From a candidate division WOR-3 bacterium (GTDB taxonomy: Bacteria; Hydrothermota; Tepidihabitantia; B3-TA06): a stretch of DNA of 64,000 bases. Position 1 is the first letter of the stretch. Each line of letters opens with the position of its first letter. The notes under the pieces are model-generated. The model did not search any database. It saw only the letters and a list, made by a program, of their open reading frames with translations, and was not told the DNA's origin. The DNA lies in assembly GCA_965649265.1 (NCBI GenBank), contig CBFGKC010000013.1, positions 26,879 through 90,878 of the forward strand, in the 5' to 3' direction. This document shows, piece by piece, positions 32,496-63,527 of the stretch. Both the position numbers and the translations under genes were made by a program.

Positions 32496-32608
32496 TTTCC
32501 GCAGCGGCTTGACAAAGCATCTGCAGGTAGTAGACTTGTTTGAGGCTGGGGCGTACGAGGCTGTGGTTTGAAAAGTACGAAAATCTACAAAACTGGAGGA
32601 GGTCATAT

Positions 32609-44367: not shown

Positions 44368-44450
44368 GAATGAGCACTTCTGATTAGAAAATTTGATTGT
44401 AAGAGCTGCTCAGCCCTGCTGTGCAGCTCTTGGTTTTTCGAGGAGGATTG

Positions 44451-47352: not shown

Positions 47353-47380
47353 TTGACAAGATATAAGCAGAGTATATAAT
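47353..47380 (+). promoter_or_regulatory. consensus sigma70 promoter upstream of the paralog array
   Basis: Exact TTGACA (47353-58), 16-nt spacer, TATAAT (47375-80) in an AT-rich region. Confidence 0.8.
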
Positions 47381-47437: not shown

Positions 47438-47674
47438 ATGCACGACGAAAAAAAGAATCTTTTAAAAATGCGCAGCCGGGTTGATGCGTCAAGGGCGGCT
47501 CTCAAGTGCTGCAAGCGTTTCTCGAAAACCTCTCGTTTACGCGATCAGATTTCTTCTCTGTTCCCAAAAAATGTAGCAAAAACATTGTTTTTTATCAAAT
47601 TTTTTCAAATCAATTTGTTATGCTTTCCGGAAGTCTGGGGTGATTTGGAATGTCTTCGAACATCAAAGATCTGA
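47438..47674 (+). CDS. possible leader ORF, 78 aa, unrelated to the array family
   Basis: GGAGGAG SD just before the ATG, downstream of the promoter; no recognisable motif. Confidence 0.3.
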   Translation: MHDEKKNLLKMRSRVDASRAALKCCKRFSKTSRLRDQISSLFPKNVAKTLFFIKFFQINLLCFPEVWGDLECLRTSKI

Positions 47675-47747: not shown

Positions 47748-48188
47748 ATGTCAAAAATCAGAACACTGACCCTCATCCTCTCAGCAATCATACTGTTCGC
47801 GGCAACCCCGATAATGGCCCAGCTTGCCGGTACGTGGGCCGGCACAGGCACGGGCATTGCCTATCCACCGTCGGGAGCAATCATATATCCCTGGCAAAAC
47901 TGGAAGGGCGCTATTCCTGCGACAGAAACATCCTTCAAGGGCGACTGGTGGGATGCAGACGGCCATTCCGGCACGTTCGAGGGTAAACAGGTCCCTTCGC
48001 CCATACCCGAGGAAAGGGTATTTCAGGGAACCTGGGTGCTGATTGACCCGTCAGGAATCTCCGCCAAATCCGGCGATTTCGAGATGCATTTCTTATTCAT
48101 TGAAGGAACCTGCAAGGGAACCTGGACCTCCATCTGGCCGTCATCGATCTCCGGCGGAACCATGAAAGGCGAAAGAGTAGACGACTGA
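47748..48188 (+). CDS. array family A copy 1, secreted Trp/Gly-rich protein
   Basis: Signal peptide; GTWAG, PWQNWKG, GDW.D.DG, GTF, GDF.M.F, CKGTW, GTMKG. Confidence 0.88.
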   Translation: MSKIRTLTLILSAIILFAATPIMAQLAGTWAGTGTGIAYPPSGAIIYPWQNWKGAIPATETSFKGDWWDADGHSGTFEGKQVPSPIPEERVFQGTWVLIDPSGISAKSGDFEMHFLFIEGTCKGTWTSIWPSSISGGTMKGERVDD

Positions 48189-48225
48189 CCAGGCTTCTTG
48201 AAGAAGCAAGTCAAGGAGAATTACC

Positions 48226-48672
48226 ATGAAAAGAAAACTTCTCGTTGCCGCGCTCGCGGCAGCAGTGCTTCTGGCTGCAAGCCCGGCATTCGCCCATCTC
48301 TCGGGTGCCTGGGAGGGAACGGGAACCGGGTATTGCTATCCGAGAAGCAGCATAATCATCTATCCATGGCAGGATTGGCAGGGTCAGATACCCAATGCCG
48401 CCAACTCTTTCACCGGCACATGGAATGACGCGCTGGGAAACCACGGCACATTTAAGGGTTCGCCCGCACCTTCCATTCCTGAGATTGCCGTATTTAAGGG
48501 AACGTGGACATGGTTCGACCCCGACGGCTCATCCACGATACCGGTCTACGGCGGTGATTTCACGATGACCTTCTATATTTTAGACGACACATGCGCCGGG
48601 ACTTGGACAACAATCTGGCCCACGCCGTATAAGGTCGGAACAATGAGAGGAGCCTGGGTTACGCCCGACTGA
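48226..48672 (+). CDS. array family A copy 2
   Basis: Same motif series; SD AAGGAG. Confidence 0.88.
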   Translation: MKRKLLVAALAAAVLLAASPAFAHLSGAWEGTGTGYCYPRSSIIIYPWQDWQGQIPNAANSFTGTWNDALGNHGTFKGSPAPSIPEIAVFKGTWTWFDPDGSSTIPVYGGDFTMTFYILDDTCAGTWTTIWPTPYKVGTMRGAWVTPD

Positions 48673-48825
48673 CGAATAGAACGATGCTTTATTTAATCAC
48701 TAAAAAAGAGCGCTCAGTCACGGTCGAAGAAATGGAATCCGCGATCCGCGGCTGAGAGCAATAATGTAGCGGGGGGAAGTGGCTTCCACCTCCCCCCCGG
48801 CTTCAAAAAATGCTAAGGAGGAGAA

Positions 48826-49272
48826 ATGATAAAATCAACAAATGCGAAGGCAATGTTCAGCGCCGTCGTGCTGATTCTTGGTGTGCTGATCGTGACGCCG
48901 GCTCTGGCGCAGCCCGCGGGCCGCTGGATCGGAACAGGTTCGGGCAGCACCACCCCCCCCTCCCTCGATCCTTCTCAGGAGCCGATACACCCATGGCAGG
49001 AATGGAAGGCCGATTTCATTGACGGCGTCTTCCTGGGCGTATGGCTGGACAAAGATGAGAACTACGGTCAGTTCAATGCCAAGATGGTCTCATCCACCCC
49101 GACAACGGCAACCTACAAGGGAACCTGGTCATGGCTCGCCCCCTCGGGCTGGCTCGTCGAGATAGGGGAGTTCAAAATGACTTTCAAGATAGACGAGTGG
49201 CTCTGCTACGGAGAATGGACGACAAATTACAATTCAGATGGTGGAACGATGGAGGGAGAGAGAACGGAATGA
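48826..49272 (+). CDS. array family A copy 3
   Basis: Same motif series; SD AAGGAGG. Confidence 0.88.
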   Translation: MIKSTNAKAMFSAVVLILGVLIVTPALAQPAGRWIGTGSGSTTPPSLDPSQEPIHPWQEWKADFIDGVFLGVWLDKDENYGQFNAKMVSSTPTTATYKGTWSWLAPSGWLVEIGEFKMTFKIDEWLCYGEWTTNYNSDGGTMEGERTE

Positions 49273-49315
49273 ACGCCGGAATAAACCGGCATTCATAAAA
49301 ACGCAAGGAGGAGAA

Positions 49316-49696
49316 ATGAAACGCATCCTCATAGCCGCAGCGATAGCGGTATGCATAATGCCCGCAATGCTTATGGGCAGCTTATTCATCACAAGCCCTG
49401 CAGCAGATACTTCATGGAAAATATGGACCTATCACGACATCACATGGACATGGACAGGCAATACACCTGACAGCTTCGTAATAGAGTGGCTTGAAAACAT
49501 ACCAGGGCACTACCACTGGTTACCCATAGTTACGGTATTAGGTACTTATAACAGTTACAACTGGTATGTAGGTTCGGGGCTCTTCCACGTACCCGTCTGT
49601 CCCTATCCAGATGCTCTCGTAAAGATACGCGTCTTCGATGATGGAGGTCTAATCGATTACGCCATTTCCGACGGATTCCTCATCCATAACTACTGA
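49316..49696 (+). CDS. array family B copy 1, secreted Ig-like (Kre9/Knh1-N-like) domain
   Basis: Signal peptide; ITSP...W...ITW...Y.W.V...SD.F.I; start re-called at the SD-linked ATG. Confidence 0.8.
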   Translation: MKRILIAAAIAVCIMPAMLMGSLFITSPAADTSWKIWTYHDITWTWTGNTPDSFVIEWLENIPGHYHWLPIVTVLGTYNSYNWYVGSGLFHVPVCPYPDALVKIRVFDDGGLIDYAISDGFLIHNY

Positions 49697-49802
49697 GGAT
49701 ACTTGATACTTGAAATAAGAATAGAAGGAAAGATTTCTAAGAGGAACTTTTGTTGAAGTAGATAACAAAAGGACGAGGAGGCCTAACAAACAGAAAGGAG
49801 AG

Positions 49803-50261
49803 ATGATGAATCTCAAAAAGACTCTTACTCTGTTCGTTGCGATCTTCATTATTGCCGCGACACCTGTTTTTGCCCAGCCGAACGGGACCTGGGCTGGTGG
49901 CGGCGAGGGCTGGTGCCCTTATCCCGTACCCTACCCCGGCGATTACATGAAGCCGTGGCAGAACTGGAAGGGCATTGTCGAAAACGAGGAAGTGTTTTAT
50001 GGAGACTGGTGGGATGCCGGCGACAATTCCGGAACCTTCAAAGGCACCGTGACTATTATCTCGAGTTATGAGGCTTACTCCGAAGGCGAATGGTACTGGA
50101 TCGACTACAGATACGATCCGCCTCAATACCACTATATGGGAACCTTCTCGATGAAATTCAAGTACCCTATGACCAGTTTGCCTTACTGCTATGGAGAATG
50201 GCAGGGATACGTGCCCTCAGGCATCTACACCGGGACCATGAAAGGAAAACTGGTTGATTGA
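49803..50261 (+). CDS. array family A copy 4
   Basis: Same motif series. Confidence 0.88.
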   Translation: MMNLKKTLTLFVAIFIIAATPVFAQPNGTWAGGGEGWCPYPVPYPGDYMKPWQNWKGIVENEEVFYGDWWDAGDNSGTFKGTVTIISSYEAYSEGEWYWIDYRYDPPQYHYMGTFSMKFKYPMTSLPYCYGEWQGYVPSGIYTGTMKGKLVD

Positions 50262-50367
50262 ATAGAAGACAAGTCTTTAACCTGTTCATTTTGTATGACT
50301 GCGATTGAAAAACGGAAAAGAGTAGGTGGCTAATAAACCCCTCAACCTAAATACGATGGAGGAAAAC

Positions 50368-50820
50368 ATGAAAAACTCAAGGACCCTGATCATGCTGCTG
50401 GCGAGCCTTGTCGTCCTTGCGGCGACTCCGCTTATGGCCCAATCACTCCCTGGCAACTGGGAAGGCACCGGCGATGGAATATGCCCGCCGCCATGGCCGT
50501 CGACTACACCTTTGATGATGAATCCCTGGCAAAACTGGGCCGGCCAGATTCCGGCCACCGGAACAAGATTCAGCGGAGAGTGGCACGATGACGCCGGCTT
50601 TGACGGCAACTTCAGCGGGACAATAGAGATATCTTCGGTAACCTACGCCACATGCAATGGTGAATGGACTGCAATAAATCGCAGCGTCAATCCACCTCAG
50701 GAATACGTCATGGGCGCTTTTACCATGCGTTTCTACTATGCAGACCTAACGTGTAATGGTGAATGGTATTCGGCGAGCGCCGTCTACAGCGGAACCATGA
50801 ACGGCGAAAAGGTCGATTGA
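50368..50820 (+). CDS. array family A copy 5
   Basis: Same motif series; start re-called at the ATG after GGAGG. Confidence 0.88.
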   Translation: MKNSRTLIMLLASLVVLAATPLMAQSLPGNWEGTGDGICPPPWPSTTPLMMNPWQNWAGQIPATGTRFSGEWHDDAGFDGNFSGTIEISSVTYATCNGEWTAINRSVNPPQEYVMGAFTMRFYYADLTCNGEWYSASAVYSGTMNGEKVD

Positions 50821-51482
50821 TCGGGATCCTGACAAGGGTTCTCGCGCAAAAGCGATAAACGACGGTCAAGAATTAGTGGAAACCTGTAAACAACAAAAAC
50901 CAAGAAATGGACAGGAAAACCATAAAACCTCGATCATCTATGGAGGAAACAATGAAAAGCTCGAAAGCGTTGATGGTGCTTCTCGTGGTCGTAGTAGCCA
51001 TTGCTGCAACCCCGCTTGGAGCTCAATTTCTTGCGGGAACATGGAAAGGAACTGGAGACGGAGCATGTATTCCGCCGTTCCCTACCCCTGTCCCCGACTC
51101 GATGTTCCCATGGCAAAACTGGGTGGGCGAGATACCTGACTCAGAAACCGTAATGACGGGTACTTGGCACGACGTATCAGGCTATACGGGCAATTTCAGC
51201 GGAGACATAATCCTTGCCGGGCCTCTCTACGCCATATGTAATGGCATGTGGTTGGTCTTGAATCCGTTCGTCACGCCTCCGTCTCAGACAGTAGGTGGAA
51301 GCTTCACAATGCGCTTATACTACGGAACGCAGACATGTGAAGGTGAATGGTATTCTGTAGGCGGTACATACAGTGGAACAATGGAAGGTGAGAAAGACTA
51401 GTGATCAGGCTCCTGACCCGGTTTTCGCGTGATGGCGTTAAACGACGGTCAAGAATTCGTGGAGGCCTGCAAACAACAAAAA
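50818..51482 (+). repeat. about 80-bp imperfect intergenic direct repeat (50818-50899 and 51402-51482)
   Basis: Both copies contain TCCTGAC, an identical TAAACGACGGTCAAGAATT, and AAACAACAAAAA. Confidence 0.8.
50952..51401 (+). CDS. array family A copy 6
   Basis: Same motif series; close to copies 5 and 8. Confidence 0.88.
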   Translation: MKSSKALMVLLVVVVAIAATPLGAQFLAGTWKGTGDGACIPPFPTPVPDSMFPWQNWVGEIPDSETVMTGTWHDVSGYTGNFSGDIILAGPLYAICNGMWLVLNPFVTPPSQTVGGSFTMRLYYGTQTCEGEWYSVGGTYSGTMEGEKD

Positions 51483-51497
51483 ATAAGGAGAAGCATA

Positions 51498-51953
51498 ATG
51501 AATCTCAAAAAGACACTCACCCTGCTTGCCGTGATATTCATCATTTCGGCGACACCGTTGGCAGCCGACCTCTGGGGAACCTGGGCCGGCACCGGTGAAG
51601 GTAACTGCTATCCCCATCCCGGTGTAGTGATATACCCCTGGCAGAGCTGGAAAGGTGAGGTTTACACTTCGCCCGACCAGGATGCACCGATTTTCGAAGG
51701 CGAATGGTATGACGAACTCGGCAATCACGGCACTTTCAAGGGTAACATCTACTACCCTCCAATTGAGGAAGAGGCAATTGCCGAAGGCGAATGGACATGG
51801 TACGATCCTGACGGAATATCCCCCCAGCCCACGGTCGGCGGTAAATTCCAGATGACCTTCTATTTCCTTGAGGACTACTGCATCGGGAAAAGGACAACCA
51901 TATGGCCGTCCACCGGCGCAGTAGGCAGCATGGAAGGCAAGGATCAAGACTAG
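51498..51953 (+). CDS. array family A copy 7
   Basis: Same motif series; the last GxW reads GKR. Confidence 0.86.
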   Translation: MNLKKTLTLLAVIFIISATPLAADLWGTWAGTGEGNCYPHPGVVIYPWQSWKGEVYTSPDQDAPIFEGEWYDELGNHGTFKGNIYYPPIEEEAIAEGEWTWYDPDGISPQPTVGGKFQMTFYFLEDYCIGKRTTIWPSTGAVGSMEGKDQD

Positions 51954-52042
51954 AAAAGCGATAAGTTATGAGGGTGGGGCACCGCCCTCATACTCGTAAA
52001 AAAGCTGTAAAAGCATGAATCATCGATTCGATGGAGGAAAAA

Positions 52043-52495
52043 ATGAAAAGATCAAAAGCATTGATGGTGTTTCTCGTGGCCGTGGTGGCCATTGCAGCAA
52101 CACCGCTTATGGCTCAGTCACTCCCCGGAATTTGGAAGGGAACTGGCGACGGAGTATGTCCTCCGCCTTTTCCAACCCCCCTGCCCGTCATGATGAATCC
52201 GTGGGAGAACTGGAAGGGCGAGATACCCAACACGGGAACAGCATTCAAGGGTACGTGGTACGACAGTCCGGGATACTACGGTAACTTCCACGGCGACATT
52301 CTGCTTTCGACACCGACTTATGCGGTATGCAACGGTGAGTGGAGCGTTACCAATCCATATACCATACCTCCCACCGAGGTAGTAATGGGAAACTTCACCA
52401 TGCGTTTCTACTACGCCACTCTTACGTGCAAGGGTGAATGGTATTCGTCGAGCAACGTCTACCACGGAACCATGAAAGGCGAGAAAGTCGAATAA
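52043..52495 (+). CDS. array family A copy 8
   Basis: Same motif series. Confidence 0.88.
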   Translation: MKRSKALMVFLVAVVAIAATPLMAQSLPGIWKGTGDGVCPPPFPTPLPVMMNPWENWKGEIPNTGTAFKGTWYDSPGYYGNFHGDILLSTPTYAVCNGEWSVTNPYTIPPTEVVMGNFTMRFYYATLTCKGEWYSSSNVYHGTMKGEKVE

Positions 52496-52554
52496 AAAAC
52501 CGGCTCCGGGGGCGCAAGCCCCCGGAGCACTAAAAACGACTCAAGGAGGAGAAA

Positions 52555-52920
52555 ATGAAACGTCTCATTATTGCAGCATCTATAGCTGTGTGCATGTTGC
52601 CGGCAATGGCTTCGGCGACACTGGTCGTAATCTCTCCGGACGGCAATGATACATGGAGAGCCATGACAACCGAGACAATCGAATGGACATACTCCGGCGA
52701 AACACCGGACTCCTTTCAAATAGTGTGGCTGGAGGTCGGCACCGAGAATCGTTATATCATCGATTACGTCGACGGGAATGCAAGGGAATACGATTGGCTC
52801 GTTGGAAACCCGTGCATTCACGCAATCTTGGAACCCATTCAGGCTGTCGTCTTCGTTAACGCAGTAGATATTGAAGTAGATCAATCGGACACGTTCACAA
52901 TCATACCTTACCGTTGGTAA
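52555..52920 (+). CDS. array family B copy 2, secreted Ig-like domain
   Basis: MKRLIIAASIAVCMLPAM leader and TPDSF.I.WLE shared with B1. Confidence 0.8.
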   Translation: MKRLIIAASIAVCMLPAMASATLVVISPDGNDTWRAMTTETIEWTYSGETPDSFQIVWLEVGTENRYIIDYVDGNAREYDWLVGNPCIHAILEPIQAVVFVNAVDIEVDQSDTFTIIPYRW

Positions 52921-53011
52921 TGAAAAGGAGGCAAAGCTCCAAACAAAAGAGGCAAGAATTTGCCTGTTCGACAGCCGATCATAAAACACACAATCATCAA
53001 AGGAGTAAAGG

Positions 53012-53422
53012 ATGCGTAAATCGATTTTGACAATAGCAATCCTAGGAATATTGCTCGGAACGATGCCTGCGTTCGCACACTTCACGGGATTCTGGGAGGG
53101 AACAGGAACCGGTACGCTGCCTGTTCCGCCGGTCGTAATTAACCCCTGGCAATTCTGGGGCGGGAATATAACCGCCGATCACCTGGTCTTCTACGGGGAC
53201 TGGAATGATGCCGCAACCGCCGGAACGTTCAAAGGCTCGCTCGTTAGCATGTCGAGCGATGTGGCCGTTTACAAGGGCTACTGGTACTGGAACGAGAAAC
53301 CTGACAAAACGATGGGCGACTTCAAGATGACCTTCTACTGGAACAACGGCGTTTGCTACGGCGAATGGCACTCCTTTGATCCGGCTGGTTTCTCGGGAAC
53401 GATGACGGGCGATAGATGGTAA
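53012..53422 (+). CDS. array family A copy 9
   Basis: Same motif series, short loops. Confidence 0.88.
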   Translation: MRKSILTIAILGILLGTMPAFAHFTGFWEGTGTGTLPVPPVVINPWQFWGGNITADHLVFYGDWNDAATAGTFKGSLVSMSSDVAVYKGYWYWNEKPDKTMGDFKMTFYWNNGVCYGEWHSFDPAGFSGTMTGDRW

Positions 53423-53456
53423 GAGAAAACGACTAAAAAAATTAAAAGGAGTAACG

Positions 53457-53921
53457 ATGAAAAAGATAATACTTGTCGCTATTGCGGTTTTGATGCTTGC
53501 AGGAGTGACGCCGGCATTAGCTCAACCCGTCGGAACGTGGTCCGGCGAGGGTGATGGCTGGTGCCCATTTCCCGTACCGTACCCATCGGAGTACATGAAG
53601 CCATGGCAGACATGGAAAGGTCGCTTTGAGCCCAACCCGGAAGAGATAGGATACATATTCTATGGAGAGTGGCACGACGGAGACGGCAATTACGGCACCT
53701 TCAAAGGTGAAGCCATACTGGGAACACCCACCGAGATTTCTTGTACGGGAACCTGGACCTGGTGGGACGAACGCCTTGACCCTCCCCGGGTCTACGAGAT
53801 GGGAAATTTCACCATGCTCTTTCGGCGAGACGGGAGTTCCTGCGAAGGCGACTGGTACGACACTATCGATCCCAGCGGGATATATCACGGCACGATGAAA
53901 GGCTACTGGGTAGAACCCTGA
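53457..53921 (+). CDS. array family A copy 10
   Basis: Same motif series; close to copy 18. Confidence 0.88.
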   Translation: MKKIILVAIAVLMLAGVTPALAQPVGTWSGEGDGWCPFPVPYPSEYMKPWQTWKGRFEPNPEEIGYIFYGEWHDGDGNYGTFKGEAILGTPTEISCTGTWTWWDERLDPPRVYEMGNFTMLFRRDGSSCEGDWYDTIDPSGIYHGTMKGYWVEP

Positions 53922-53963
53922 GAACTGGAAAAATGCAACTCCCGGATGAATTAAGGAGTAACG

Positions 53964-54380
53964 ATGCGTAAGGTTTTATTCGCAACGGCGTTTATTCTCT
54001 TGACCGCCATACCCGTTTTTGCTCAGCTTGCCGGCACCTGGAACGGCGAGGGCACAGGCACCTGCGATTTCTACGGAACCCTTCTGCGTCCGTGGGAAAC
54101 ATGGACGGGGACAATCCCTGCCACTGAAGATTCGTTCACGGGCATCTGGTCCGACGGCCTGGGAAACTCGGGCACTTTCTTCAACACCAATATCGAAGTC
54201 ATAAGTGACGATATCGTCGTAATTGAAGGCAGATGGACGCTCACGATTCCAGACGGTCTAAAAAAGCTGGGTACTTTCAAAATAACCTTCTACACGCACA
54301 ACCGCGTTTGCTACGGCGAGTGGGACAGTCCATTTCCCACCGTTCCGCCCAGAACGATATACGGCAAAGTGGTATGGTGA
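53964..54380 (+). CDS. array family A copy 11
   Basis: Same motif series, short loops. Confidence 0.86.
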   Translation: MRKVLFATAFILLTAIPVFAQLAGTWNGEGTGTCDFYGTLLRPWETWTGTIPATEDSFTGIWSDGLGNSGTFFNTNIEVISDDIVVIEGRWTLTIPDGLKKLGTFKITFYTHNRVCYGEWDSPFPTVPPRTIYGKVVW

Positions 54381-54421
54381 CCGCAGCCGCTTTGCTCGTT
54401 CATTGATTGAAAGGAGAAAAC

Positions 54422-54859
54422 ATGAGATGCTTTAGCAAAATTTCCATGGCATCCCTTGCGATGATAGTTATCGTTGCAGCTGCTCCGCTCGCGGCGCAGG
54501 TTGCCGGCGCATGGGGCGGAGTAGGAGACGGCGAAGCCTACCCGCCGACAGGTGATATCATCTATCCCTGGCAAAACTGGACAGGCGAGATTCCTACCGA
54601 CGAGGAAACCTTTTCAGGCAGCTGGTGGGATGCTGACGGCAGCCACGGCACGTTCTACGGAGTACAGGGACCGTCCATCTCTCCCGTAATCGCAGTCTTC
54701 TCAGGAACCTGGACCTGGGAAAACTCCGACGAAATAGTCAAGGGAGGCGAATTCACGATGAATTTCTACCTCCTTTACGGAACCTGCTCCGGAACGTGGA
54801 CCTCAGTATGGCCTTCGCCCGGCACTCCCGGAACGATGAAAGGCGAAAAGTTAGATTAG
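54422..54859 (+). CDS. array family A copy 12
   Basis: Same motif series; start re-called. Confidence 0.88.
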   Translation: MRCFSKISMASLAMIVIVAAAPLAAQVAGAWGGVGDGEAYPPTGDIIYPWQNWTGEIPTDEETFSGSWWDADGSHGTFYGVQGPSISPVIAVFSGTWTWENSDEIVKGGEFTMNFYLLYGTCSGTWTSVWPSPGTPGTMKGEKLD

Positions 54860-55024
54860 CAAGTGAATTCGGCCTTTGGCTGAACCCTCCCCCCGGGGGT
54901 CTCAATACCCCCGGGGGCATGAATCTTCAAGGAACCAGGCAAGGTGACTGGATGGAAAACTAGCAAAAATGAAGGCGGCGTTCGTCGTTCTTCAGAACTT
55001 TAAGATGTTAGTCAAGGAGGAGAA

Positions 55025-55480
55025 ATGCGCAAAATAATACCCGTCGTTGCGGCAGCAATAATACTCTTTTGGGGAGCCCCTCTTTTTGCCGATCTTGACG
55101 GACTCTGGGAGGGTGAAGGCAAGGGCTACTGCTACCCCCCGTTCCCGACGCCTTATGCCTATACCATCTATGCCTGGCAGAAATGGTCAGGCTGCGTCGA
55201 GAACAAGGAAGTATTCTACGGAAAGTGGGAGGACGAAAAAGGAAACTACGGGCAGTTTGAAGGAAAGATACTTCCAGTGAGTCCATCGGATAAGTATGTG
55301 ATCGGTGAAGGCAAATGGACATGGTTCAACGTTTTCGGAAAGGAACCTGAGGAGATAACAATGGGTCCTTTCACAATGTATTTCTACTACAACGACGACT
55401 ACTGTGAAGGCAAGTGGTGGACCGACTACTCGCCTTCGATAAAGATCGGAACAATGACAGGAAAGAGGATTGGCGACTAA
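55025..55480 (+). CDS. array family A copy 13
   Basis: Same motif series. Confidence 0.88.
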   Translation: MRKIIPVVAAAIILFWGAPLFADLDGLWEGEGKGYCYPPFPTPYAYTIYAWQKWSGCVENKEVFYGKWEDEKGNYGQFEGKILPVSPSDKYVIGEGKWTWFNVFGKEPEEITMGPFTMYFYYNDDYCEGKWWTDYSPSIKIGTMTGKRIGD

Positions 55481-55504
55481 TAACTCAAAACATAAGGAGA
55501 AGAA

Positions 55505-55954
55505 ATGAAAACAACCAAAGCCCTGATCGTTATTGTTGTCTTGATGCTTGCAGTTGCTGCAACCCCGGCGGTTGCCCAGCTTGCTGGCGTCTGGGAAGGC
55601 ACAGGTAAAGGCAATGCCTACCCTCGCAACAGCACCGTGATCTATCCCTGGCAAAAATGGGAGGGTGAAATACCGAACACCCAGGATGTTTTTTCAGGCA
55701 CCTGGTCTGACAGCATCGGGAACCGCGGAACATTTAAGGGTGAAGTCGAGTTCTCGGCTATTCCTGAGCTTGCAAAGGCGAAAGGCTCCTGGTATTGGTT
55801 TGATCCTCTGGGCCCATCTAATGTCCCTGTGTACGGCGGTGATTTCGCCATGGATTTCTGGTTCACGATGGGTACATGCGAAGGAACCTGGACGACCATC
55901 TGGCCTTCAACAGGCGTAGTAGGAAGCATGGAAGGCTGGAAGGTCACAGACTGA
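55505..55954 (+). CDS. array family A copy 14
   Basis: Same motif series. Confidence 0.88.
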   Translation: MKTTKALIVIVVLMLAVAATPAVAQLAGVWEGTGKGNAYPRNSTVIYPWQKWEGEIPNTQDVFSGTWSDSIGNRGTFKGEVEFSAIPELAKAKGSWYWFDPLGPSNVPVYGGDFAMDFWFTMGTCEGTWTTIWPSTGVVGSMEGWKVTD

Positions 55955-56018
55955 TTCGAAGCGCAGTACAAAGAGGGGGTGGTCCCGCCCCCTCGCGACT
56001 TCTCAGCTAGGAGGAACA

Positions 56019-56474
56019 ATGCGTAAAGCTATGTTTTCGGCAATCGCCCTGGCGCTTCTTGCATCCGCGACATCGTCGTCTGCGCAGCTTCTGGGTATAT
56101 GGGCAGGTGAAGGCAAAGGCAGTTGCTATCCATATTCAGATTGCGAAATCTTTCCATGGCAGAACTGGAAAGGCGTGGTTTACTATCCCGACGATGCCAA
56201 AAAACCTGTTTTCGTGGGTGAATGGTTTGATGCCGAGGGAAATCACGGAACCTTCTTCGGCAAGAATTACCCGACACCCATAGAGGAGTACTATCTCTTC
56301 AAGGGCGAATGGACCTGGTACGATCCGGCATCAAAAACGGCCGAACCGGTCGTCGGCGGAAATTTCGAGATGAAGTTCTACTTCATTGCAGGAACATCGA
56401 GCGGCTTCTGGGATACCGAATGGCCCTCGCCCTCGGAACAGGGCACCATGTGGGGCAAATGGGAGGGTGAATAA
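56019..56474 (+). CDS. array family A copy 15
   Basis: Same motif series; lacks the usual last Cys and has two in loop 1. Confidence 0.88.
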   Translation: MRKAMFSAIALALLASATSSSAQLLGIWAGEGKGSCYPYSDCEIFPWQNWKGVVYYPDDAKKPVFVGEWFDAEGNHGTFFGKNYPTPIEEYYLFKGEWTWYDPASKTAEPVVGGNFEMKFYFIAGTSSGFWDTEWPSPSEQGTMWGKWEGE

Positions 56475-56519
56475 AACGAGAGACGGCATCGTCGTCTCAT
56501 AACCCGATAAGGAGTAACA

Positions 56520-56960
56520 ATGCGTAAAGTGATCGTTTCGGCAATCGCGCTCGCGCTCATCCTTGGAGCGAGTCCGGCTCCGGCACAGGTCGCCGGCACA
56601 TGGGTGGGCACGGGCGATGGCAACGCCTACCCTCATCCCGGAGTAGTAATCCATCCCTGGCAGCAGTGGAAGGGTGAGATTCCGGATGCACAAGACGTGT
56701 TTTCGGGCGAATGGTCCGATGGAGACGGCAACCACGGCATTTTCAAAGGTTCGCCTGTGCCGTCCATACCGGAAGTCGTCGTATTCAAGGGCGAATGGTA
56801 CTGGTACGACCCAGATGGGTTTTCCGATCAGCCCGTGCTCGGCGGCGACTTCGAGATGACCTTCCATTTTATGGGTGAATACTGGTGTGAAGGTACATGG
56901 ACATCGGTATGGATATCCTCCAGTTCTGACAAGGGAACCATGAAGGGCTGGAAGGATTAG
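56520..56960 (+). CDS. array family A copy 16
   Basis: Same motif series. Confidence 0.88.
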   Translation: MRKVIVSAIALALILGASPAPAQVAGTWVGTGDGNAYPHPGVVIHPWQQWKGEIPDAQDVFSGEWSDGDGNHGIFKGSPVPSIPEVVVFKGEWYWYDPDGFSDQPVLGGDFEMTFHFMGEYWCEGTWTSVWISSSSDKGTMKGWKD

Positions 56961-57024
56961 GTGAAGACGGCAAATCGAGATGGACACGTGCACATATCGA
57001 TCACAAACAAAAAAGGAGAAACCA

Positions 57025-57471
57025 ATGCGTAAATCACTCACGACAATAGTCGCGGCAATGCTTTTGATTGCCGCCGTTCCGGCTCTGGCGCAGCTGGATG
57101 GAAACTGGAAAGGCGAAGGAAAGGGTGTCTGCTCACCGCCGATAGGAACTACCGATTTTCCGATCTATGCATGGCAAACATGGAAAGGCGAGATCAACGG
57201 CGACGATTTCTGGGGCAGCTGGAGCGACGAAAACGGCAGATACGGCAACTTCAAGGGTACAATCCTCTGGGTAAGCGAAGAGGAAGCGTACGCCGAAGGC
57301 GAATGGACCTGGGTTTACGGCCCCGACTCCGATCCTCCTCAGGAGTATCTCATGGGTCCTTTCCAGATGAATTTCGTTCATTTCCCAGTAGAGACGCCGT
57401 ACTGCTACGGCAAGTGGCAGACTTATTACAGCGATGAAGCGGGAACCATGAAAGGCAGGATGATATTCTGA
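57025..57471 (+). CDS. array family A copy 17
   Basis: Same motif series; start re-called. Confidence 0.88.
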   Translation: MRKSLTTIVAAMLLIAAVPALAQLDGNWKGEGKGVCSPPIGTTDFPIYAWQTWKGEINGDDFWGSWSDENGRYGNFKGTILWVSEEEAYAEGEWTWVYGPDSDPPQEYLMGPFQMNFVHFPVETPYCYGKWQTYYSDEAGTMKGRMIF

Positions 57472-57526
57472 AAGGGTTTAACAGGATGCGTTGAAGTCGA
57501 ACGCGCAACATAAAAAAGGAGTAGAA

Positions 57527-57991
57527 ATGCGTAAGATACTTTTGGCCGCTCTCGCGGCGGCACTCGTTATCGGTGTGACACCGGCTTTTGCCCAGCCCGA
57601 AGGAACATGGGACGGAACGGGCGACGGCTGGTGTCCTTATCCGATATTCTCCACGCCGGGTGACACGATGTTCCCCTGGCAGGAATGGAAAGGACGTTTT
57701 GAACCTGATCCCAACGGAACGGGTTACATCTTTTACGGAAACTGGCACGATCAAAGACTCAATCAAGGGACTTTCAGCGGCAGCGCGATTCTGGGAACCC
57801 CGACCGAAATAGGCTGCAACGGGGACTGGTACTGGCTTGATGAGCGGGTTGATCCACCTGTATCTCGTTACATGGGTACTTTCACAATGACCCTGAGGCG
57901 GGACGGAAGTTATTGCCACGGAACATGGATAACGACCGTTTTTCCTGCCGTCTACCGGGGCACAATGGAAGGAGCATGGGTCGAACCGTGA
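57527..57991 (+). CDS. array family A copy 18
   Basis: Same motif series; start re-called. Confidence 0.88.
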   Translation: MRKILLAALAAALVIGVTPAFAQPEGTWDGTGDGWCPYPIFSTPGDTMFPWQEWKGRFEPDPNGTGYIFYGNWHDQRLNQGTFSGSAILGTPTEIGCNGDWYWLDERVDPPVSRYMGTFTMTLRRDGSYCHGTWITTVFPAVYRGTMEGAWVEP

Positions 57992-58043
57992 TCGATCACG
58001 ATCCGGTTTTAAACCGCTCCAAAAAGACTGAAAAGGAGAAAAC

Positions 58044-58481
58044 ATGCGCAAGATATTACTTGTCGTTATCGCCGCATTGTTCCTTGTTGCTGCAACACCG
58101 CTCCTTGCCCAGATCTCAGGCCCGTGGGAAGGCACCGGTACAGGTGCCTGCCCCCCGCCCTTCCCCTCTCCGTCGAAAGCAATGGGACCCTGGCGTTACT
58201 GGACGGGTGAAATCCCCGATGACGAAACAACATTCTCGGGTGTCTGGCAGGACGACTGGGGTTTTCACGGAACGTTCTACGGCGAGGCTGTCGCGGGCAC
58301 GCCTGAAGAAGCCGTTTTTACCGGGACTTGGACGGTAATAGACGATGCCGGTGGAATGGTTTACGAGATGGGTACCTTCTATATGCACTTCCCGTACGCG
58401 GCCAGGGCATGCCACGGGGAATGGTGGAACTATAACAGCGACTTGGCCCAGGGAACCATGACCGGCCACAGAGTTGACTGA
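58044..58481 (+). CDS. array family A copy 19
   Basis: Same motif series; close to copy 22. Confidence 0.88.
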   Translation: MRKILLVVIAALFLVAATPLLAQISGPWEGTGTGACPPPFPSPSKAMGPWRYWTGEIPDDETTFSGVWQDDWGFHGTFYGEAVAGTPEEAVFTGTWTVIDDAGGMVYEMGTFYMHFPYAARACHGEWWNYNSDLAQGTMTGHRVD

Positions 58482-58550
58482 TTGAAAAGCCTATATGGCA
58501 AGTGGCGAACCAGTCGCCTCGAGAACACAAAAACTTGAAAGGAGAAAAAA

Positions 58551-58997
58551 ATGCGTAAAACAGCTATAACGGTGCTTGCATTAATCCTTGTGCTTGCCGC
58601 AGCGCCGCTTGCGGCACAGATTGCTGGAACCTGGCAAGGAGGAGGAGACGGTGTATGTTCTCCCCCGCCCTTCTGGCCTTCAGACATTCCTATCTATGCC
58701 TGGCAGTCGTGGACCGGCGAAATACCGGCATCTGAGAGTTCATTCAAAGGAGAATGGCACGACGAACTCGGTAAATTCGGGTACTTCTCCGGGACAATGA
58801 TTGCACAATCGTTGACTGAGGTCTACTGCGAAGGCACATGGACATGGGTATACAATCCCGACGTTGATCCTCCCCAGGAGTACACAATGGGTCCCTTCTC
58901 GATGTGGTTCCATAAAACCGAACTGACGTGTCGAGGCGAGTGGTCCACAAGCTACAGCAACGAGGGAGGCAGTATTTGGGGAGCGATGGTCGACTAG
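58551..58997 (+). CDS. array family A copy 20
   Basis: Same motif series. Confidence 0.88.
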   Translation: MRKTAITVLALILVLAAAPLAAQIAGTWQGGGDGVCSPPPFWPSDIPIYAWQSWTGEIPASESSFKGEWHDELGKFGYFSGTMIAQSLTEVYCEGTWTWVYNPDVDPPQEYTMGPFSMWFHKTELTCRGEWSTSYSNEGGSIWGAMVD

Positions 58998-59114
58998 GTG
59001 CCGATGGTCTATTTAAAAACGGTGTCGACAGGAATTCCAAGGTCGACCTGGAACTATCGCAGAGGGGGCTCATTCCGGGCCCCCTCTACACTAAAGACTT
59101 AGTAAGGCGGAACA

Positions 59115-59567
59115 ATGCGCAAAATTATCTTTGCAGGCCTGGCGATAGTTTTTGCTCTTGCTGCCCCGCCTGTGTTCGCCGACCCATACGACTGGTCGGG
59201 AACGGGTGATAAGATACCGTGGGAAGAATCCCCCAAGTATATCGTTTATCCGTGGTTCGAATGGTGGGGCACACTTTCTGAAGGCACGTTTGCAGGCAAC
59301 TGGGCGCCCGACACGCCGAACTATGAAGGCGGAGGCACGTTGTACCGAATCTTTTCGGGTCAAATCCTCTATTATTACACGCCGGAAGAAGGGGGCCCCA
59401 CATACGCTCACTGCGAGGGCGAATGGACGCGCCTGCACGATTACCGGGCGCAGGAGTGCGGCTGGTTCGAGATGGAGTTCAACGTGACTGATGGAACGTG
59501 CGAGGGCGTTTGGGGATTCGTTGAAGATGAAACCGTTGCCGGAAAAATGTGGGGCGGCGGGAATTGA
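59115..59567 (+). CDS. array family A copy 21 (divergent subgroup)
   Basis: DWSGTG, YPWFEWWG, HCEGEW, FEMEFN, TCEGVW. Confidence 0.85.
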   Translation: MRKIIFAGLAIVFALAAPPVFADPYDWSGTGDKIPWEESPKYIVYPWFEWWGTLSEGTFAGNWAPDTPNYEGGGTLYRIFSGQILYYYTPEEGGPTYAHCEGEWTRLHDYRAQECGWFEMEFNVTDGTCEGVWGFVEDETVAGKMWGGGN

Positions 59568-59587
59568 TCACAAAGAAAGGAGCGCAA

Positions 59588-60034
59588 ATGCGTAAACTTC
59601 TCTTGATCGCTCTGTCGGCTGCGGTCGTTTCAGGAGCAACACCTGCCCTGGCCCAGATCGCAGGCTCGTGGGAGGGCACCGGAACAGGAAGCTGCCCAAA
59701 TCCTACCTCCAATCCCGTTGAAACCATGCGTCCATGGAATATCTGGAGCGGCGAAATACCCGACGATGAATCGACCTTCTCGGGCGAGTGGCACGATCCT
59801 GCCGGAGTACATGGAACCTTTACAGGCGAAGCAACATTCGCAACACCGGAAGAAGTTGTTTTCACAGGAACATGGAATGCGATAGACGACCTTGTAGATC
59901 CTCCCGTTATCTACGAAATGGGAACCTTCTACATGCATTTCCCTTACACAGCCAGGGCATGTCACGGCGAGTGGGTGACGTATGACAGTGATATTCCTCA
60001 GGGAACCATGACCGGTCACAGAACCGACGGATGA
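59588..60034 (+). CDS. array family A copy 22
   Basis: Same motif series; start re-called. Confidence 0.88.
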   Translation: MRKLLLIALSAAVVSGATPALAQIAGSWEGTGTGSCPNPTSNPVETMRPWNIWSGEIPDDESTFSGEWHDPAGVHGTFTGEATFATPEEVVFTGTWNAIDDLVDPPVIYEMGTFYMHFPYTARACHGEWVTYDSDIPQGTMTGHRTDG

Positions 60035-60099
60035 AATTCTCTTTGATATGCGGGGCGGTCTCGGCCTCGCGAACACAAAAACCTCAACAAGGAGGAATC

Positions 60100-60525
60100 A
60101 TGCGTAAAGCACTATATGCAATCATTGCGTGCATCGCTGTGCTCGGAGCAACGCAGCTGATGGCCGAAGACTGGGCCGGCACCGGCTCGGGCTCATGGAT
60201 AAGACCTGACGGCTCCACGCTGGTGTATCCCTGGCAGGTATGGTCGGGGACGCTCGAGACCGGCGCGTTCACGGGCACATGGTCGGACGATCTCGGCAAT
60301 GCCGGCGGCTTTTCAGGCTCGATCATCTACTACTATACCTCGGTCGATCCCGGCGATACCTATGGTCACTGTGAAGGCTCATGGAACATATACGATCCGA
60401 CTGGCGTGACCATCGGCGGGCCGTTCGAGATGGAGTTCAACCTGACCCAGGGAACCTGCAAGGGTGCATGGGTACCAAAAAATGGCACCGGCAAAGGAAC
60501 GATGACCGGCGAAAGAATCGACTAG
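60100..60525 (+). CDS. array family A copy 23
   Basis: Same motif series; close to copy 21. Confidence 0.88.
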   Translation: MRKALYAIIACIAVLGATQLMAEDWAGTGSGSWIRPDGSTLVYPWQVWSGTLETGAFTGTWSDDLGNAGGFSGSIIYYYTSVDPGDTYGHCEGSWNIYDPTGVTIGGPFEMEFNLTQGTCKGAWVPKNGTGKGTMTGERID

Positions 60526-60622: not shown

Positions 60623-61138
60623 ATGCATAAAACAACAAAAACCGTCGTAGCCGTGCTAGGTTTCCTTGTTCTTGGACTCACGGTAGGCTTCGCTTATCCG
60701 GAGTGGTTCCACGGAACCGGTACGGGAACCTGCTATTATTCCCATGACGAGGTGATAGACACTATTGAAGTCTTCTATGCATGGCAGCTCGAGCATGTTC
60801 CCCAGACTAACGGCTTCATTGGCTGTACCTGGGACAATAACGGTCGCGGTGCCTGCCTGACGACTGCCGTATTTTTTGGCAGCGGCAATTGCGAGTATGA
60901 TGGGGGCGGATCGTGGGAACTATACAATCCTATTGTAAACGATAGTACTTCAGTGTATGACGATGGAACCCTTACATTCTGCATTGATTCTGTAAACGCA
61001 ACAATATGGACATTAAGCGGAACCTGGGTAGCCACGCAAGAATTTCTCACGGGTTCCGGCACACTTTCAGGTCACGGGCATTTTTCAGAGCCCGATGGCT
61101 GGTCATCTTGCGGGAGCTGTCCTGTCGAAGATCCGTGA
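60623..61138 (+). CDS. array family A copy 24, highly divergent and Cys-rich
   Basis: Signal peptide; GTGTGTCY, YAWQ, GCTWDNNG, GSW, SGTW, GTLSG; CGSC tail. Confidence 0.75.
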   Translation: MHKTTKTVVAVLGFLVLGLTVGFAYPEWFHGTGTGTCYYSHDEVIDTIEVFYAWQLEHVPQTNGFIGCTWDNNGRGACLTTAVFFGSGNCEYDGGGSWELYNPIVNDSTSVYDDGTLTFCIDSVNATIWTLSGTWVATQEFLTGSGTLSGHGHFSEPDGWSSCGSCPVEDP

Positions 61139-61156
61139 TGCAAAAGACTTAACATT

Positions 61157-61188
61157 TCGGGGCGGATTGTTCCGCCCCGAATTATTTA
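61157..61188 (+). terminator. hairpin closing the array
   Basis: TTCGGGGCGG-ATTGTT-CCGCCCCGAA followed by TTATTT. Confidence 0.65.
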
Positions 61189-63062: not shown

Positions 63063-63527
63063 ATGAAGGGGACTGAGGATTACACCACGCTCTACACGGA
63101 TGAAGATATCGCAGATACCCTTGAGATAACGCTCGGCTCGAACGTGGATACAATCAGCATACCGGGCAACGACTACTCGTGGTATGAGCAGAACATAGCG
63201 TCAAACAGCGACACCATGAACCTCAAGATAAAGAAACTATCGAGAGATGGCTTTATTCCGGTGAGCCGTGTGATGGTGCGGGAGCGCAGCGATTCGGGTC
63301 TGTTCATGATGAAGGGTAAACCGATTGCAGGTCCTGAGAAGATAGTGTTCTGTCTTTTCCAGCCGAACCCGAATCCGTTCAGTGATGCTGCCACAATAAG
63401 ATACTCCCTGCCCTATGAGACCAATGTCAGCCTCAAGGTATACGACATATCGGGTAGACTGGTCAATACCCTTGTTCAGGGCAAGGTTCAGGCCGGAGTC
63501 CATACCATCCGCTGGGAAGGTAAATGA
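63063..63527 (+). pseudogene. fragment of a FlgD/T9SS-A-CTD protein, truncated
   Basis: PNPNPF...IRYSLP...LKVYDISGRLV...HTIRWEGK-stop; no signal peptide; the domain stops before the usual GVYF motif. Confidence 0.5.

What the first reader, a model, noticed from the sequence alone, without database searches (positions are those of the whole stretch)
47748..60525. Four-fold hairpin repeat predicts a calycin/avidin-like barrel with variable loops on one face (natural anticalin-like library)
Seen: each mature domain has four units that open with GxW and close with WxG, GTFxG, GxFxM or GTMxG. Length and sequence variation concentrates inside hairpin 1 (CPYPVPYPGDY, CPPPWPSTTPLM, CDFYGTL), hairpin 3 (DPSGISAK, DYRYDPPQYHY, NEKPDKT) and hairpin 4, while the hairpin 2 turn DxxG is nearly fixed. 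Established: lipocalins and avidins are 8-stranded up-down barrels with an N-terminal GxW, and their intra-hairpin loops all lie at the ligand-binding end. Inference: a fixed scaffold carrying Pro/Tyr/Trp-rich, CDR-like loops with different specificities.
Basis: inference. Interest (0 to 1): 0.78.

Follow-up and report, generated by a model that had tools for sequence, protein, structure and literature searches.

The report
Tandem array of secreted mini beta-barrels
An uncultured bacterium carries 24 neighbouring genes for small exported proteins that are all predicted to fold into the same eight-stranded barrel, with an unchanging tryptophan-glycine core and an outside that differs from copy to copy; the family has no name and its job is unknown.

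Summary
The repeat is real. No Pfam, NCBIfam or PDB sequence match. AlphaFold2 models of two divergent copies are confident (pLDDT 87-88) and show eight strands. Best fold matches are closed 8-stranded barrels: TbpB/LbpB/fHbp/NHBA/hemophilin barrels Z 10-11, designed barrels Z 9-10, avidins Z 7-9. So the barrel prediction holds, but calycin membership is not shown: no 3-10 cap, no lipocalin helix, no HMM hit. The "variable loops on one face" idea fails. Loop-length spread is equal at both barrel ends (SD 1.85/1.89/0.98 against 1.83/1.64/1.00). Outward-facing strand positions are as variable as any loop. The family is confined to one family of the WOR-3/Stahlbacteria phylum. It always sits at the same locus, with 4 to 24 copies. 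Paralogues are old and each is conserved between genera. Function is unknown. My best guess is a co-expressed set of periplasmic or extracellular binding modules that use their outer surfaces.

The parts
47353..47380 (+). sigma-70-like promoter consensus (TTGACA-16-TATAAT, 12 of 12), 368 nt before the first copy
   Evidence: a consensus match only, not shown to function
47748..48188 (+). copy 1 (146 aa); AlphaFold2 model 1
48226..48672 (+). copy 2 (148 aa)
48826..49272 (+). copy 3 (148 aa)
49803..50261 (+). copy 4 (152 aa; long Pro/Tyr-rich L1 and L5); AlphaFold2 model 2
50368..50820 (+). copy 5 (150 aa from MKNSRT)
50952..51401 (+). copy 6 (149 aa from MKSSKAL)
51498..51953 (+). copy 7 (151 aa)
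52031..52495 (+). copy 8 (154 aa)
53012..53422 (+). copy 9 (136 aa, shortest)
53457..53921 (+). copy 10 (154 aa)
53964..54380 (+). copy 11 (138 aa)
54422..54859 (+). copy 12 (145 aa)
55025..55480 (+). copy 13 (151 aa)
55505..55954 (+). copy 14 (149 aa)
56019..56474 (+). copy 15 (151 aa)
56520..56960 (+). copy 16 (146 aa)
57025..57471 (+). copy 17 (148 aa)
57527..57991 (+). copy 18 (154 aa)
58044..58481 (+). copy 19 (145 aa)
58551..58997 (+). copy 20 (148 aa)
59115..59567 (+). copy 21 (150 aa; insertion in L4)
59588..60034 (+). copy 22 (148 aa)
   Evidence: 30.4 bits, E 1.5e-5 at Z=1e6, against an HMM of the other 23
61156..61181 (+). terminator-like hairpin (11 pairs, 8 G-C) 18 nt after the last copy
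   Evidence: a pattern match only

Best explanation
SHOWN OR PREDICTED WITH CONFIDENCE (about 0.9). This is an unnamed protein family restricted to one lineage. Each member is Sec-exported, soluble, acidic and has a mature domain of ~120 aa. The members are predicted to fold as eight-stranded up-down beta-barrels. Every second residue of each strand is invariant Gly, Trp, Phe or Met. By alternation these residues should point inward and form a solid aromatic core, with 5-6 Trp and about 12 Gly. The remaining positions differ almost completely between paralogues; these are the outward-facing strand residues and the loops at both ends. The same positions are kept between orthologues of two species of one genus. 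The array sits at one fixed chromosomal site and has grown and shrunk by tandem duplication, giving 4 to 24 copies. One strong promoter-like site in front, a Shine-Dalgarno sequence before each gene, short same-strand spacers and one terminator-like hairpin at the end suggest that the set is expressed together. INFERRED (about 0.35). The proteins work in the periplasm or outside the cell as a co-expressed set of binding modules. Each would recognise a different partner, probably a macromolecule, through its paralogue-specific outer surface and loops. A small ligand held inside an open calyx is less likely, because the interior appears filled and the long Pro-rich first loop is modelled as an ordered lid.
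For: Family and array: 24 paralogues, 23-52% identical to copy 1. The own genome gives 29 profile matches, 24 of them in the array, and 7 divergent ORFs at four other loci.
Export: all 24 copies have 2-3 Lys/Arg in the first 8 residues. In 23 of 24 a hydrophobic run of 17-20 residues follows and ends in ...A-Q/H/D. None has a true lipobox; one regex match lies inside the hydrophobic core of the signal peptide.
Solubility: mature pI is 4.1-5.3. Outward strand positions are mainly T/E/K/Y/S (mean hydropathy -1.08). Inward positions are 41% G, 19% W, 15% F and 7% M.
Fold: pLDDT 87.4 and 88.3 with 8 strands each; loop blocks are mostly above 80-90. VIA Z is 10-11 against closed 8-stranded barrels, over 94-113 aligned residues at rmsd 2.3-4.2.
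Conserved core, variable exterior: entropy is 0.75 bits for the conserved alternating positions and 2.8-3.5 bits for all exterior classes.
Old, maintained paralogues: I took 14 G000-G100 pairs from the tree of 77 rows. Eleven are starred sister pairs, one has support 91, and two are nearest rows in unresolved forks. Exterior identity is 58-73% between orthologues (L3 41%) and 8-26% between paralogues. pN is 0.09-0.31 while pS is 0.62-0.86.
Fixed locus: the 931-aa HEAT-repeat gene and the flavodoxin gene flank the array in 4 of 5 other genomes examined; the fifth shows the HEAT gene only. Copy numbers are 24, 19, 13, 11, 6 and 4.
Co-expression signals: (family D9, AAGGAGG before ATG).
Against: No experiment and no expression data exist; no RNA run was listed. 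I had no model coordinates. Barrel closure, the inward/outward assignment, the filled interior and the lid role of L1 are therefore inferred from the DSSP strings, residue alternation, rough volume arithmetic and superposition scores. The 'core' class was defined by conservation, so its low entropy is circular; only comparisons among exterior classes are free of this. The fold-match list falls smoothly from Z 11 to 7 without a step, which the tool warns may mean only a common arrangement. A variable exterior is also what relaxed constraint on a stable scaffold would give. No partner gene is evident in the locus.
Confidence: 0.4

Rival explanations
1. These are calycin/avidin-type barrels with an open end. 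Conserved residues there hold a common ligand moiety, and the hairpin loops L1, L5 and L7 tune specificity, like a natural anticalin library.
For: Eight-stranded up-down barrel. GxW in strand 1: W30 is 98% conserved in 108 members. Lys/Arg at the in-phase position 143 of the last strand in 63% of 108 members and 13 of 24 copies, which partly resembles the calycin Trp-Arg/Lys latch (definition read in a passage of section 3.1 of PMC2954199). Avidins match at Z 7.1-8.9. ESM-Atlas leads: a cluster with Avidin on 27% of members (0.85 and 0.81), DUF6006 (0.86 and 0.80), Calycin_like (0.75); all are below the 0.9 level, so they are leads only. Conserved D69, Q50, N73, P48 and W49 lie at the odd-loop end.
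Against: No lipocalin or avidin HMM hit at E<=1. Blc in NCBIfam reached only E 0.094 in 1 of 24 copies, below its cut-off. No 3-10 helix cap: only 2-4 residues lie between the predicted cleavage site and G28, and DSSP shows no helix there. No C-terminal helix. Variation is not confined to the odd-loop face. The inward positions carry 5-6 Trp, 4 Phe and 2 Met, which by my rough estimate fill the barrel (an inference).
Confidence: 0.15
2. A periplasmic inhibitor or immunity battery. Each copy would neutralise a different hydrolase or toxin (protease, cell-wall hydrolase, interbacterial toxin) reaching the periplasm. Known small 8-stranded-barrel inhibitors work this way.
For: One family member in public data (P0067, 288 aa) is fused to an N-terminal BsuPI 'intracellular proteinase inhibitor' domain, E 4e-20. 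The proteins are exported and soluble, and each paralogue-specific surface is conserved in orthologues. They appear to be co-expressed as an array. Recalled, not from a call: serralysin inhibitors, staphostatins and MliC/PliC lysozyme inhibitors are 8-stranded barrels, and immunity genes often pile up in arrays.
Against: There is only 1 fusion among the 93 representatives, and no longer fused forms were found. No toxin or protease gene lies in the locus. None of the named inhibitor families appears in either top-50 fold list, which does not exclude them.
Confidence: 0.2
3. Lectin-like sugar binders, similar in kind to the Trp/Gly-rich OAA-family lectin barrels.
For: The nearest named ESM-Atlas clusters for copy 58044 are OAA-family lectin sugar-binding domains (0.86 and 0.81). 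The family has 6-10 Trp per ~120 aa and conserved Asp/Gln/Asn at one end.
Against: The scores are below 0.9, and only 124 and 118 of 256 features are shared; the tool calls this a lead only. No PF17882 hit at E<=1. No OAA structure is in the top 50 of either fold search. The conserved Trp alternate with Gly in strands, as core residues do.
Confidence: 0.08
4. Distant homologues of the C-terminal barrel of TbpB/LbpB/fHbp/NHBA/hemophilin-type surface lipoproteins. In those proteins the barrel serves export and anchoring, and another domain binds the ligand.
For: These are the top structural matches for both models: Z 10.2-11.2, 94-113 residues at rmsd 2.3-4.2, apart from one TbpB row at rmsd 13.5. 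The best Foldseek hit is the NHBA C-domain, E 7.9e-4, TM 0.53.
Against: The PF01298 (TbpB_B_D) HMM finds nothing in the six-frame own genome or in the 26 proteins. There is no lipobox and no handle domain; the proteins end 3-5 residues after strand 8. Sequence identity in the superpositions is 8-17%. The Slam (PF04575) search was uninformative because its controls did not ring.
Confidence: 0.07
5. No specific binding role. A very stable periplasmic scaffold protein (structural, stress-related or bulk) was amplified by tandem duplication, and its surface drifts under weak constraint.
For: Substitution rates are uniform over the whole exterior, 19-30% per class in 14 close pairs. Copy number varies widely, from 4 to 24. 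No partner is evident.
Against: Exterior positions are 58-73% identical between orthologues whose synonymous sites are saturated (pS 0.62-0.86), so each surface is under purifying selection. Deep paralogue lineages are kept in several genera.
Confidence: 0.1

Closest known systems
C-terminal 8-stranded barrel of TbpB / LbpB / fHbp / NHBA / HpuA / hemophilin (Pfam PF01298 TbpB_B_D and relatives)
   Same: Best fold matches for both models (Z 10-11). Small, closed, soluble 8-stranded up-down barrel in an exported bacterial protein.
   Different: No HMM match. No lipobox and no handle domain; the barrel is a free-standing domain. Found in a non-pathogenic uncultured lineage, in a 24-copy tandem array.
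De novo designed 8-stranded beta-barrels (PDB 6czj, 6d0t, 8ah9)
   Same: Z 8.2-10.2 over nearly the whole chain. [quoted passage not shown] I read those rules in one passage of PMC11236705, which quotes Dou et al.; the original paper was not held.
   Different: This is a natural family with long ordered loops and a signal peptide. Whether its Gly residues act as kinks could not be checked without coordinates.
Avidin / streptavidin family (PF01382)
   Same: Eight strands, ~120 aa, no helices, Trp-rich. Z 7.1-8.9. Weak ESM-Atlas lead.
   Different: No HMM hit. Ranks below the TbpB-type barrels. Biotin-site residues were not examined. The homodimer prediction gave no verdict.
Lipocalins and engineered anticalins
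   Same: Up-down 8-stranded barrel, with GxW in the first strand.
   Different: No N-terminal 3-10 helix and no C-terminal helix. Foldseek TM is only 0.37-0.40 for anticalin and lipocalin chains. Variation is not limited to the four loops of the open end.

Membership tests
Calycin superfamily | Eight-stranded antiparallel barrel with +1 (up-down) topology | tested here: met
   Two AlphaFold2 models with 8 consecutive strands. They superpose on closed 8-stranded barrels. Closure was not checked on coordinates.
Calycin superfamily | Conserved Trp in the first strand (GxW) | tested here: met
   W30 is at least 90% conserved in the 24 copies and 98% in 108 members.
Calycin superfamily | Lys/Arg in the last strand stacking on that Trp (definition: passage of PMC2954199 section 3.1) | tested here: inconclusive
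   Position 143 is K/R in 63% of 108 members and 13 of 24 copies. The contact could not be checked without coordinates.
Calycin superfamily | Short 3-10 helix capping the barrel before strand 1 | tested here: not met
   DSSP shows no helix between the signal peptide and strand 1 in either model. Only 2-4 residues separate the ...AQ cleavage motif from G28.
Lipocalin family | Match to lipocalin HMMs | tested here: not met
   No lipocalin family at E<=1 in 26 proteins. NCBIfam Blc E 0.094 in 1 of 24 copies, below its cut-off.
Lipocalin family | C-terminal alpha-helix packed on the barrel | tested here: not met
   The chains end 3-5 residues after strand 8, and no helix outside the signal peptide appears in the models.
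Avidin family (PF01382) | HMM match | tested here: not met
   No PF01382 hit at E<=1.
Avidin family (PF01382) | Fold similarity | tested here: inconclusive
   Z 7.1-8.9 for streptavidin, shwanavidin, zebavidin, BBP and agroavidin. This lies within the tool's 'common arrangement' range.
Avidin family (PF01382) | Biotin-binding residues and tetramer | not tested
   No residue-level alignment was made. The dimer prediction gave no verdict.
TbpB-type barrel (PF01298) | HMM match | tested here: not met
   No match in the six-frame own genome or in the hmmscan of the copies.
TbpB-type barrel (PF01298) | Lipoprotein signal and an N-terminal handle domain | tested here: not met
   No true lipobox in any of the 24 copies. 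These are single-domain proteins.
TbpB-type barrel (PF01298) | Fold similarity | tested here: met
   Top of both VIA lists, Z 10-11.

The most novel reading that the evidence does not exclude
Stahlbacteria keep a co-transcribed battery of up to 24 soluble mini-barrels (31 genome-wide). They share a Gly/Trp-patterned core that obeys the same rules protein designers had to discover. Their whole exterior has diversified copy by copy and is then held fixed in each copy. On this reading the array is a natural, germline-encoded repertoire of binders or inhibitors, for example a periplasmic immunity or anti-hydrolase cocktail, built on a scaffold that belongs to no named family.
Probability: 0.25. 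Interest if true: 0.7.

Novelty: new variant of a known kind. Interest (0 to 1): 0.45.

Why it matters
If the models are right, this is a compact, helix-free barrel of ~120 aa. It tolerates almost complete resurfacing and loop-length changes at both ends while its core stays fixed. That would make it a natural counterpart of designed beta-barrels and a possible new binder scaffold. The family takes up about 13 kb of a 2.7-Mb genome in a phylum with almost no cultured members, so finding its partners would reveal part of how these bacteria deal with their surroundings.

Tried and rejected
1. Homodimer prediction for mature copy 1: no verdict (score 0.00); it counts neither for nor against self-association.
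2. Public sequencing runs: no RNA holder listed. Only small-share DNA holders from one study appeared, and I did not lay them.
3. Slam/SlipAM PF04575 in the own genome: no match, but the controls did not ring, so it is uninformative.
4. Sigma-54 promoter pattern: 17 matches against 22.8 expected, so nothing.
5. Rfam on the 532-nt leader: no match at E<=1.
6. dN/dS between G000 and G100 orthologues: synonymous sites are saturated (pS 0.62-0.86), so no ratio can be trusted. I used identities and pN only.
7. Fused or longer forms: none at E<=0.001, which is weak evidence. Among hits longer than 175 aa, only P0067 (BsuPI plus barrel) looks real. P0084 and P0092 are Trp/Gly-rich repeat proteins, probably spurious.
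8. The Thr-Cys-Tyr-x-Pro motif of another tandem family in this genome (earlier finding): CY.P occurs in 1 of 24 copies and TCY in 1 of 24, so there is no link.
9. Disulfide idea: Cys122 occurs in 97 of 108 members, Cys38 in 69 and Cys92 in 37. Cys38 and Cys122 lie at opposite barrel ends by topology, so no consistent pair could be assigned.
10. Internal-repeat ancestry: hairpins 2, 3 and 4 resemble each other above 30 column shuffles (0 of 30 reach the observed score; P 2.5e-5 to 1.6e-4). Hairpin 1 does not (3-7 of 30 shuffles reach it). The shared signal is essentially the GxW and G-x-[FM] motifs, so duplication and convergence cannot be told apart.
11. Contexts of the 7 dispersed copies: no common neighbour.
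12. Earlier scan notes near this place or resembling this sequence: none.
13. Literature: one search for 'Stahlbacteria' found 9 papers and listed 8. By title and abstract start, none concerns this family. I ran no search on the motif itself.

Full report
WHAT IS THERE. Between 47748 and 61138 the + strand carries 24 consecutive ORFs of 136-171 aa that are paralogues of one another. The 24th (60623-61138) is divergent but still scores 30.4 bits against an HMM built from the other 23. Two unrelated small ORFs, 39% identical to each other, are inserted in the array at 49313-49696 and 52555-52920. Identity to copy 1 is 23-52%.

All 24 copies begin with 2-3 Lys/Arg. In 23 of 24 a hydrophobic run of 17-20 residues follows and ends in A-Q, A-H or A-D. 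None has a real lipobox; the single regex match lies inside the hydrophobic stretch. I read this as a Sec / signal-peptidase-I signal; no signal-peptide predictor was available. The mature domains are acidic (pI 4.1-5.3) and carry 6-10 Trp and 14-23 Gly each.

THE OBSERVATION. The four-fold pattern is real. GxW opens strands 1, 3, 5 and 7: G28-W30, G65-W67, G94-W96 and G124-W126. Strands 2, 4, 6 and 8 carry W52-x-G54, G75-x-F77-x-G79, G109-x-F111-x-M113 and G137-x-M139-x-G141. All of these are invariant or at least 90% conserved in the 24 copies. They are 79-100% conserved in a 108-member alignment that adds public homologues.

Profile-profile comparison of the four hairpins shows that hairpins 2, 3 and 4 resemble each other above column-shuffled controls (0 of 30 shuffles reach the observed score). 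Hairpin 1 does not (3-7 of 30). The shared signal is essentially the motifs themselves, so I cannot separate hairpin duplication from convergence on the same structural solution.

FOLD. AlphaFold2 was run on copy 47748 with the 24-row alignment and on copy 49803 with a 103-row alignment. The models have mean pLDDT 87.4 and 88.3, pTM 0.78 and 0.79, and eight strands in sequence order. Most loop blocks are also confident.

Foldseek's best PDB hit is the NHBA C-terminal barrel (E 7.9e-4, TM 0.53). Lipocalins and anticalins reach only TM 0.37-0.40. The exhaustive VIA search gives the same ranking for both models:
- TbpB, LbpB, fHbp, NHBA, HpuA and hemophilin barrels: Z 10-11.
- Designed barrels: Z 8.2-10.2.
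- Eight-stranded outer-membrane barrels: about Z 9.
- Streptavidin and other avidins: Z 7.1-8.9.
- One lipocalin-like chain (BcnB): Z 8.4.

The list falls smoothly, which the tool warns may reflect only a common arrangement. The outward strand positions are polar, so these are soluble barrels and not membrane barrels. I had no coordinates. Barrel closure is therefore inferred from superposition on closed barrels across residues ~25-146, and inward/outward assignment from residue alternation.

NO KNOWN SEQUENCE FAMILY. These searches found no significant match:
- Pfam at E<=1 on 26 proteins.
- NCBIfam on the 24 copies.
- A profile search of all PDB sequences.
- The TbpB_B_D HMM over the six-frame own genome.

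A profile search of 1.84 billion cluster representatives found only 93 proteins at E<=0.001; at least 4 of them are the window's own. The word-indexed search found 35 proteins, none with a Pfam domain. The only informative source names were Candidatus Stahlbacteria (2 rows) and candidate division WOR-3 (1 row). ESM-Atlas gave only sub-threshold leads: OAA lectin 0.86, DUF6006 0.86 and 0.80, and a cluster with Avidin on 27% of members at 0.85 and 0.81.

WHERE THE VARIATION LIES. By topology, loops L1, L3, L5 and L7 (inside the hairpins) lie at one barrel end, and L2, L4 and L6 lie at the other end with the termini.
- Length spread in the 24 copies, odd end: L1 SD 1.85, L3 0.29, L5 1.89, L7 0.98.
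- Length spread in the 24 copies, even end: L2 1.83, L4 1.64, L6 1.00.
- Mean column entropy over 108 members: 2.81-3.31 bits for odd loops, 2.94-3.50 for even loops, 3.09 for outward-facing strand positions and 0.75 for the conserved alternating positions. The last class was defined by conservation, so that value is circular.
- Between paralogues, every exterior class is only 8-26% identical, and indels are as frequent in L2 and L4 as in L1, L5 and L7.
- In 14 independent close pairs (70-95% identical), odd loops differ at 110 of 422 sites, even loops at 46 of 213 (p=0.24), the outer wall at 131 of 518 and the core at 17 of 495.

The scaffold therefore has a fixed core and an exterior that is variable all over. 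The 'one variable face' picture is not supported.

EVOLUTION. In 272 genomes of the phylum, the profile hits all 10 other genomes of the window's own taxonomic family. Outside that family there was one weak partial hit among 261 genomes.

In the five arrays I fetched, the copy numbers are 19, 13, 11, 6 and 4. In four of them the array lies between the same 931-aa HEAT-repeat gene and the same flavodoxin gene as in the window. The fifth shows only the HEAT gene in the stretch fetched.

A tree of 77 mature domains mixes the genomes thoroughly. From it I took 14 pairs between the window's genome and its congener. Eleven are starred sister pairs, one has support 91, and two are nearest rows in unresolved forks. 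There are also a few recent duplications, for example 58044/59588. Synonymous sites between these orthologues are saturated (pS 0.62-0.86), while pN is 0.09-0.31. Exterior positions stay 58-73% identical between orthologues (L3 41% on 27 codons). Most paralogues thus predate the genus and each is under purifying selection. Loops are slightly better kept than the outer wall, which is the opposite of CDR-like hypervariability.

EXPRESSION SIGNALS. These are pattern matches only.
- A perfect TTGACA-16-TATAAT site lies at 47353-47380.
- Spacers between genes are 20-165 nt, all on one strand.
- AAGGAGG-type ribosome-binding sites precede the start codons.
- A terminator-like hairpin lies at 61156-61181, 18 nt after the last copy.
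- No RNA data set was listed.

MECHANISM. What the data support is a family of exported, soluble, very Trp/Gly-rich mini-barrels with paralogue-specific, selectively maintained surfaces, probably made together.

My rough estimate from the inward positions (5-6 Trp, 4 Phe, 2 Met, Ile, Cys, and ~12 Gly) is that the interior is filled. The long Pro-rich L1 is modelled with pLDDT 82-95 and with bridge contacts, as if it covers one end. I therefore favour binding through the outer surface and loops of both ends, to different and probably macromolecular partners, at about 0.35.

A more specific version is an inhibitor or immunity battery. Its only direct hint is a single natural fusion of this barrel to a BsuPI proteinase-inhibitor domain (P0067). 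In its favour, D69, Q50, N73 and P48-W49 are conserved at the odd-loop end, and position 143 of the last strand is Lys/Arg in 63% of members. That recalls the calycin Trp-Arg latch described in PMC2954199 (passage of section 3.1). The 3-10 cap that belongs to that signature is absent.

COMPARISON AND NOVELTY. The family works like other small soluble 8-stranded barrels and resembles them, but it fails or leaves open the membership tests for lipocalins, avidins and TbpB-type barrels (see the table). [quoted passage not shown] I read that in one passage of PMC11236705; the original paper by Dou et al. was not held.

I rate this a new variant of a known kind. It is an unnamed family, unusual for its 24-gene array and its fully resurfaced exterior, with unknown function. 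One literature search for the lineage name found 9 papers and listed 8; by title and abstract start, none concerns this family. I did not search the literature for the motif itself.

Its Cys-Tyr motif is not a feature here.

Noticed in passing
window 49313-49696 (+) and 52555-52920 (+): Two small ORFs with signal-peptide-like starts are inserted in the array. They are 39% identical to each other (E 7e-26) and have a weak Kre9_KNH Ig-like hit (E 0.0032, below the cut-off). tblastn at 1e-5 finds no counterpart in the five arrays fetched from other genomes.
   Followed up: partly
window 44421-47216 (+): A 931-aa protein with a hydrophobic N-terminus, about a dozen GxDxY-type repeats and C-terminal HEAT repeats. 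It lies directly upstream of the array in all five other genomes (44-74% identity). A second 931-aa ORF at 21937-24732 (-) has no Pfam hit.
   Followed up: partly
G000 C2:203236-204306, C11:4800-5291, C13:21960-23072 (just upstream of the window), C4:137387-138506: Seven divergent members of the same barrel family lie outside the array, mostly in pairs. The C4 pair lies just downstream of a 1691-aa kinase-STAND-TPR-GAF-sigma54-activator gene. No neighbour is common to all four loci.
   Followed up: partly
protein P0067 (public metagenome protein, 288 aa): The only fused form seen: an N-terminal BsuPI proteinase-inhibitor domain (E 4e-20) followed by one barrel of this family.
   Followed up: partly
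window 47438-47674 (+): A 78-codon ORF with a strong GGAGGAG ribosome-binding site lies in the 532-nt leader, between the promoter-like site and copy 1. It is not conserved in the five other loci (tblastn E>3) and is probably not a gene.
   Followed up: yes
window 52503-52528: A perfect 11-bp G+C-rich hairpin in the spacer after copy 8. Its T-run is on the minus strand only, so it is not a canonical terminator for the array.
   Followed up: partly
window 29718-33598 (+): A 925-aa TPR-CHAT protein (CHAT E 2.7e-51) is followed by a 352-aa leucine-rich-repeat protein.
   Followed up: no
window 63063-63527 (+): A 154-aa ORF whose C-terminus looks to me, from memory, like a T9SS-type sorting domain. 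Not tested with any tool.
   Followed up: no
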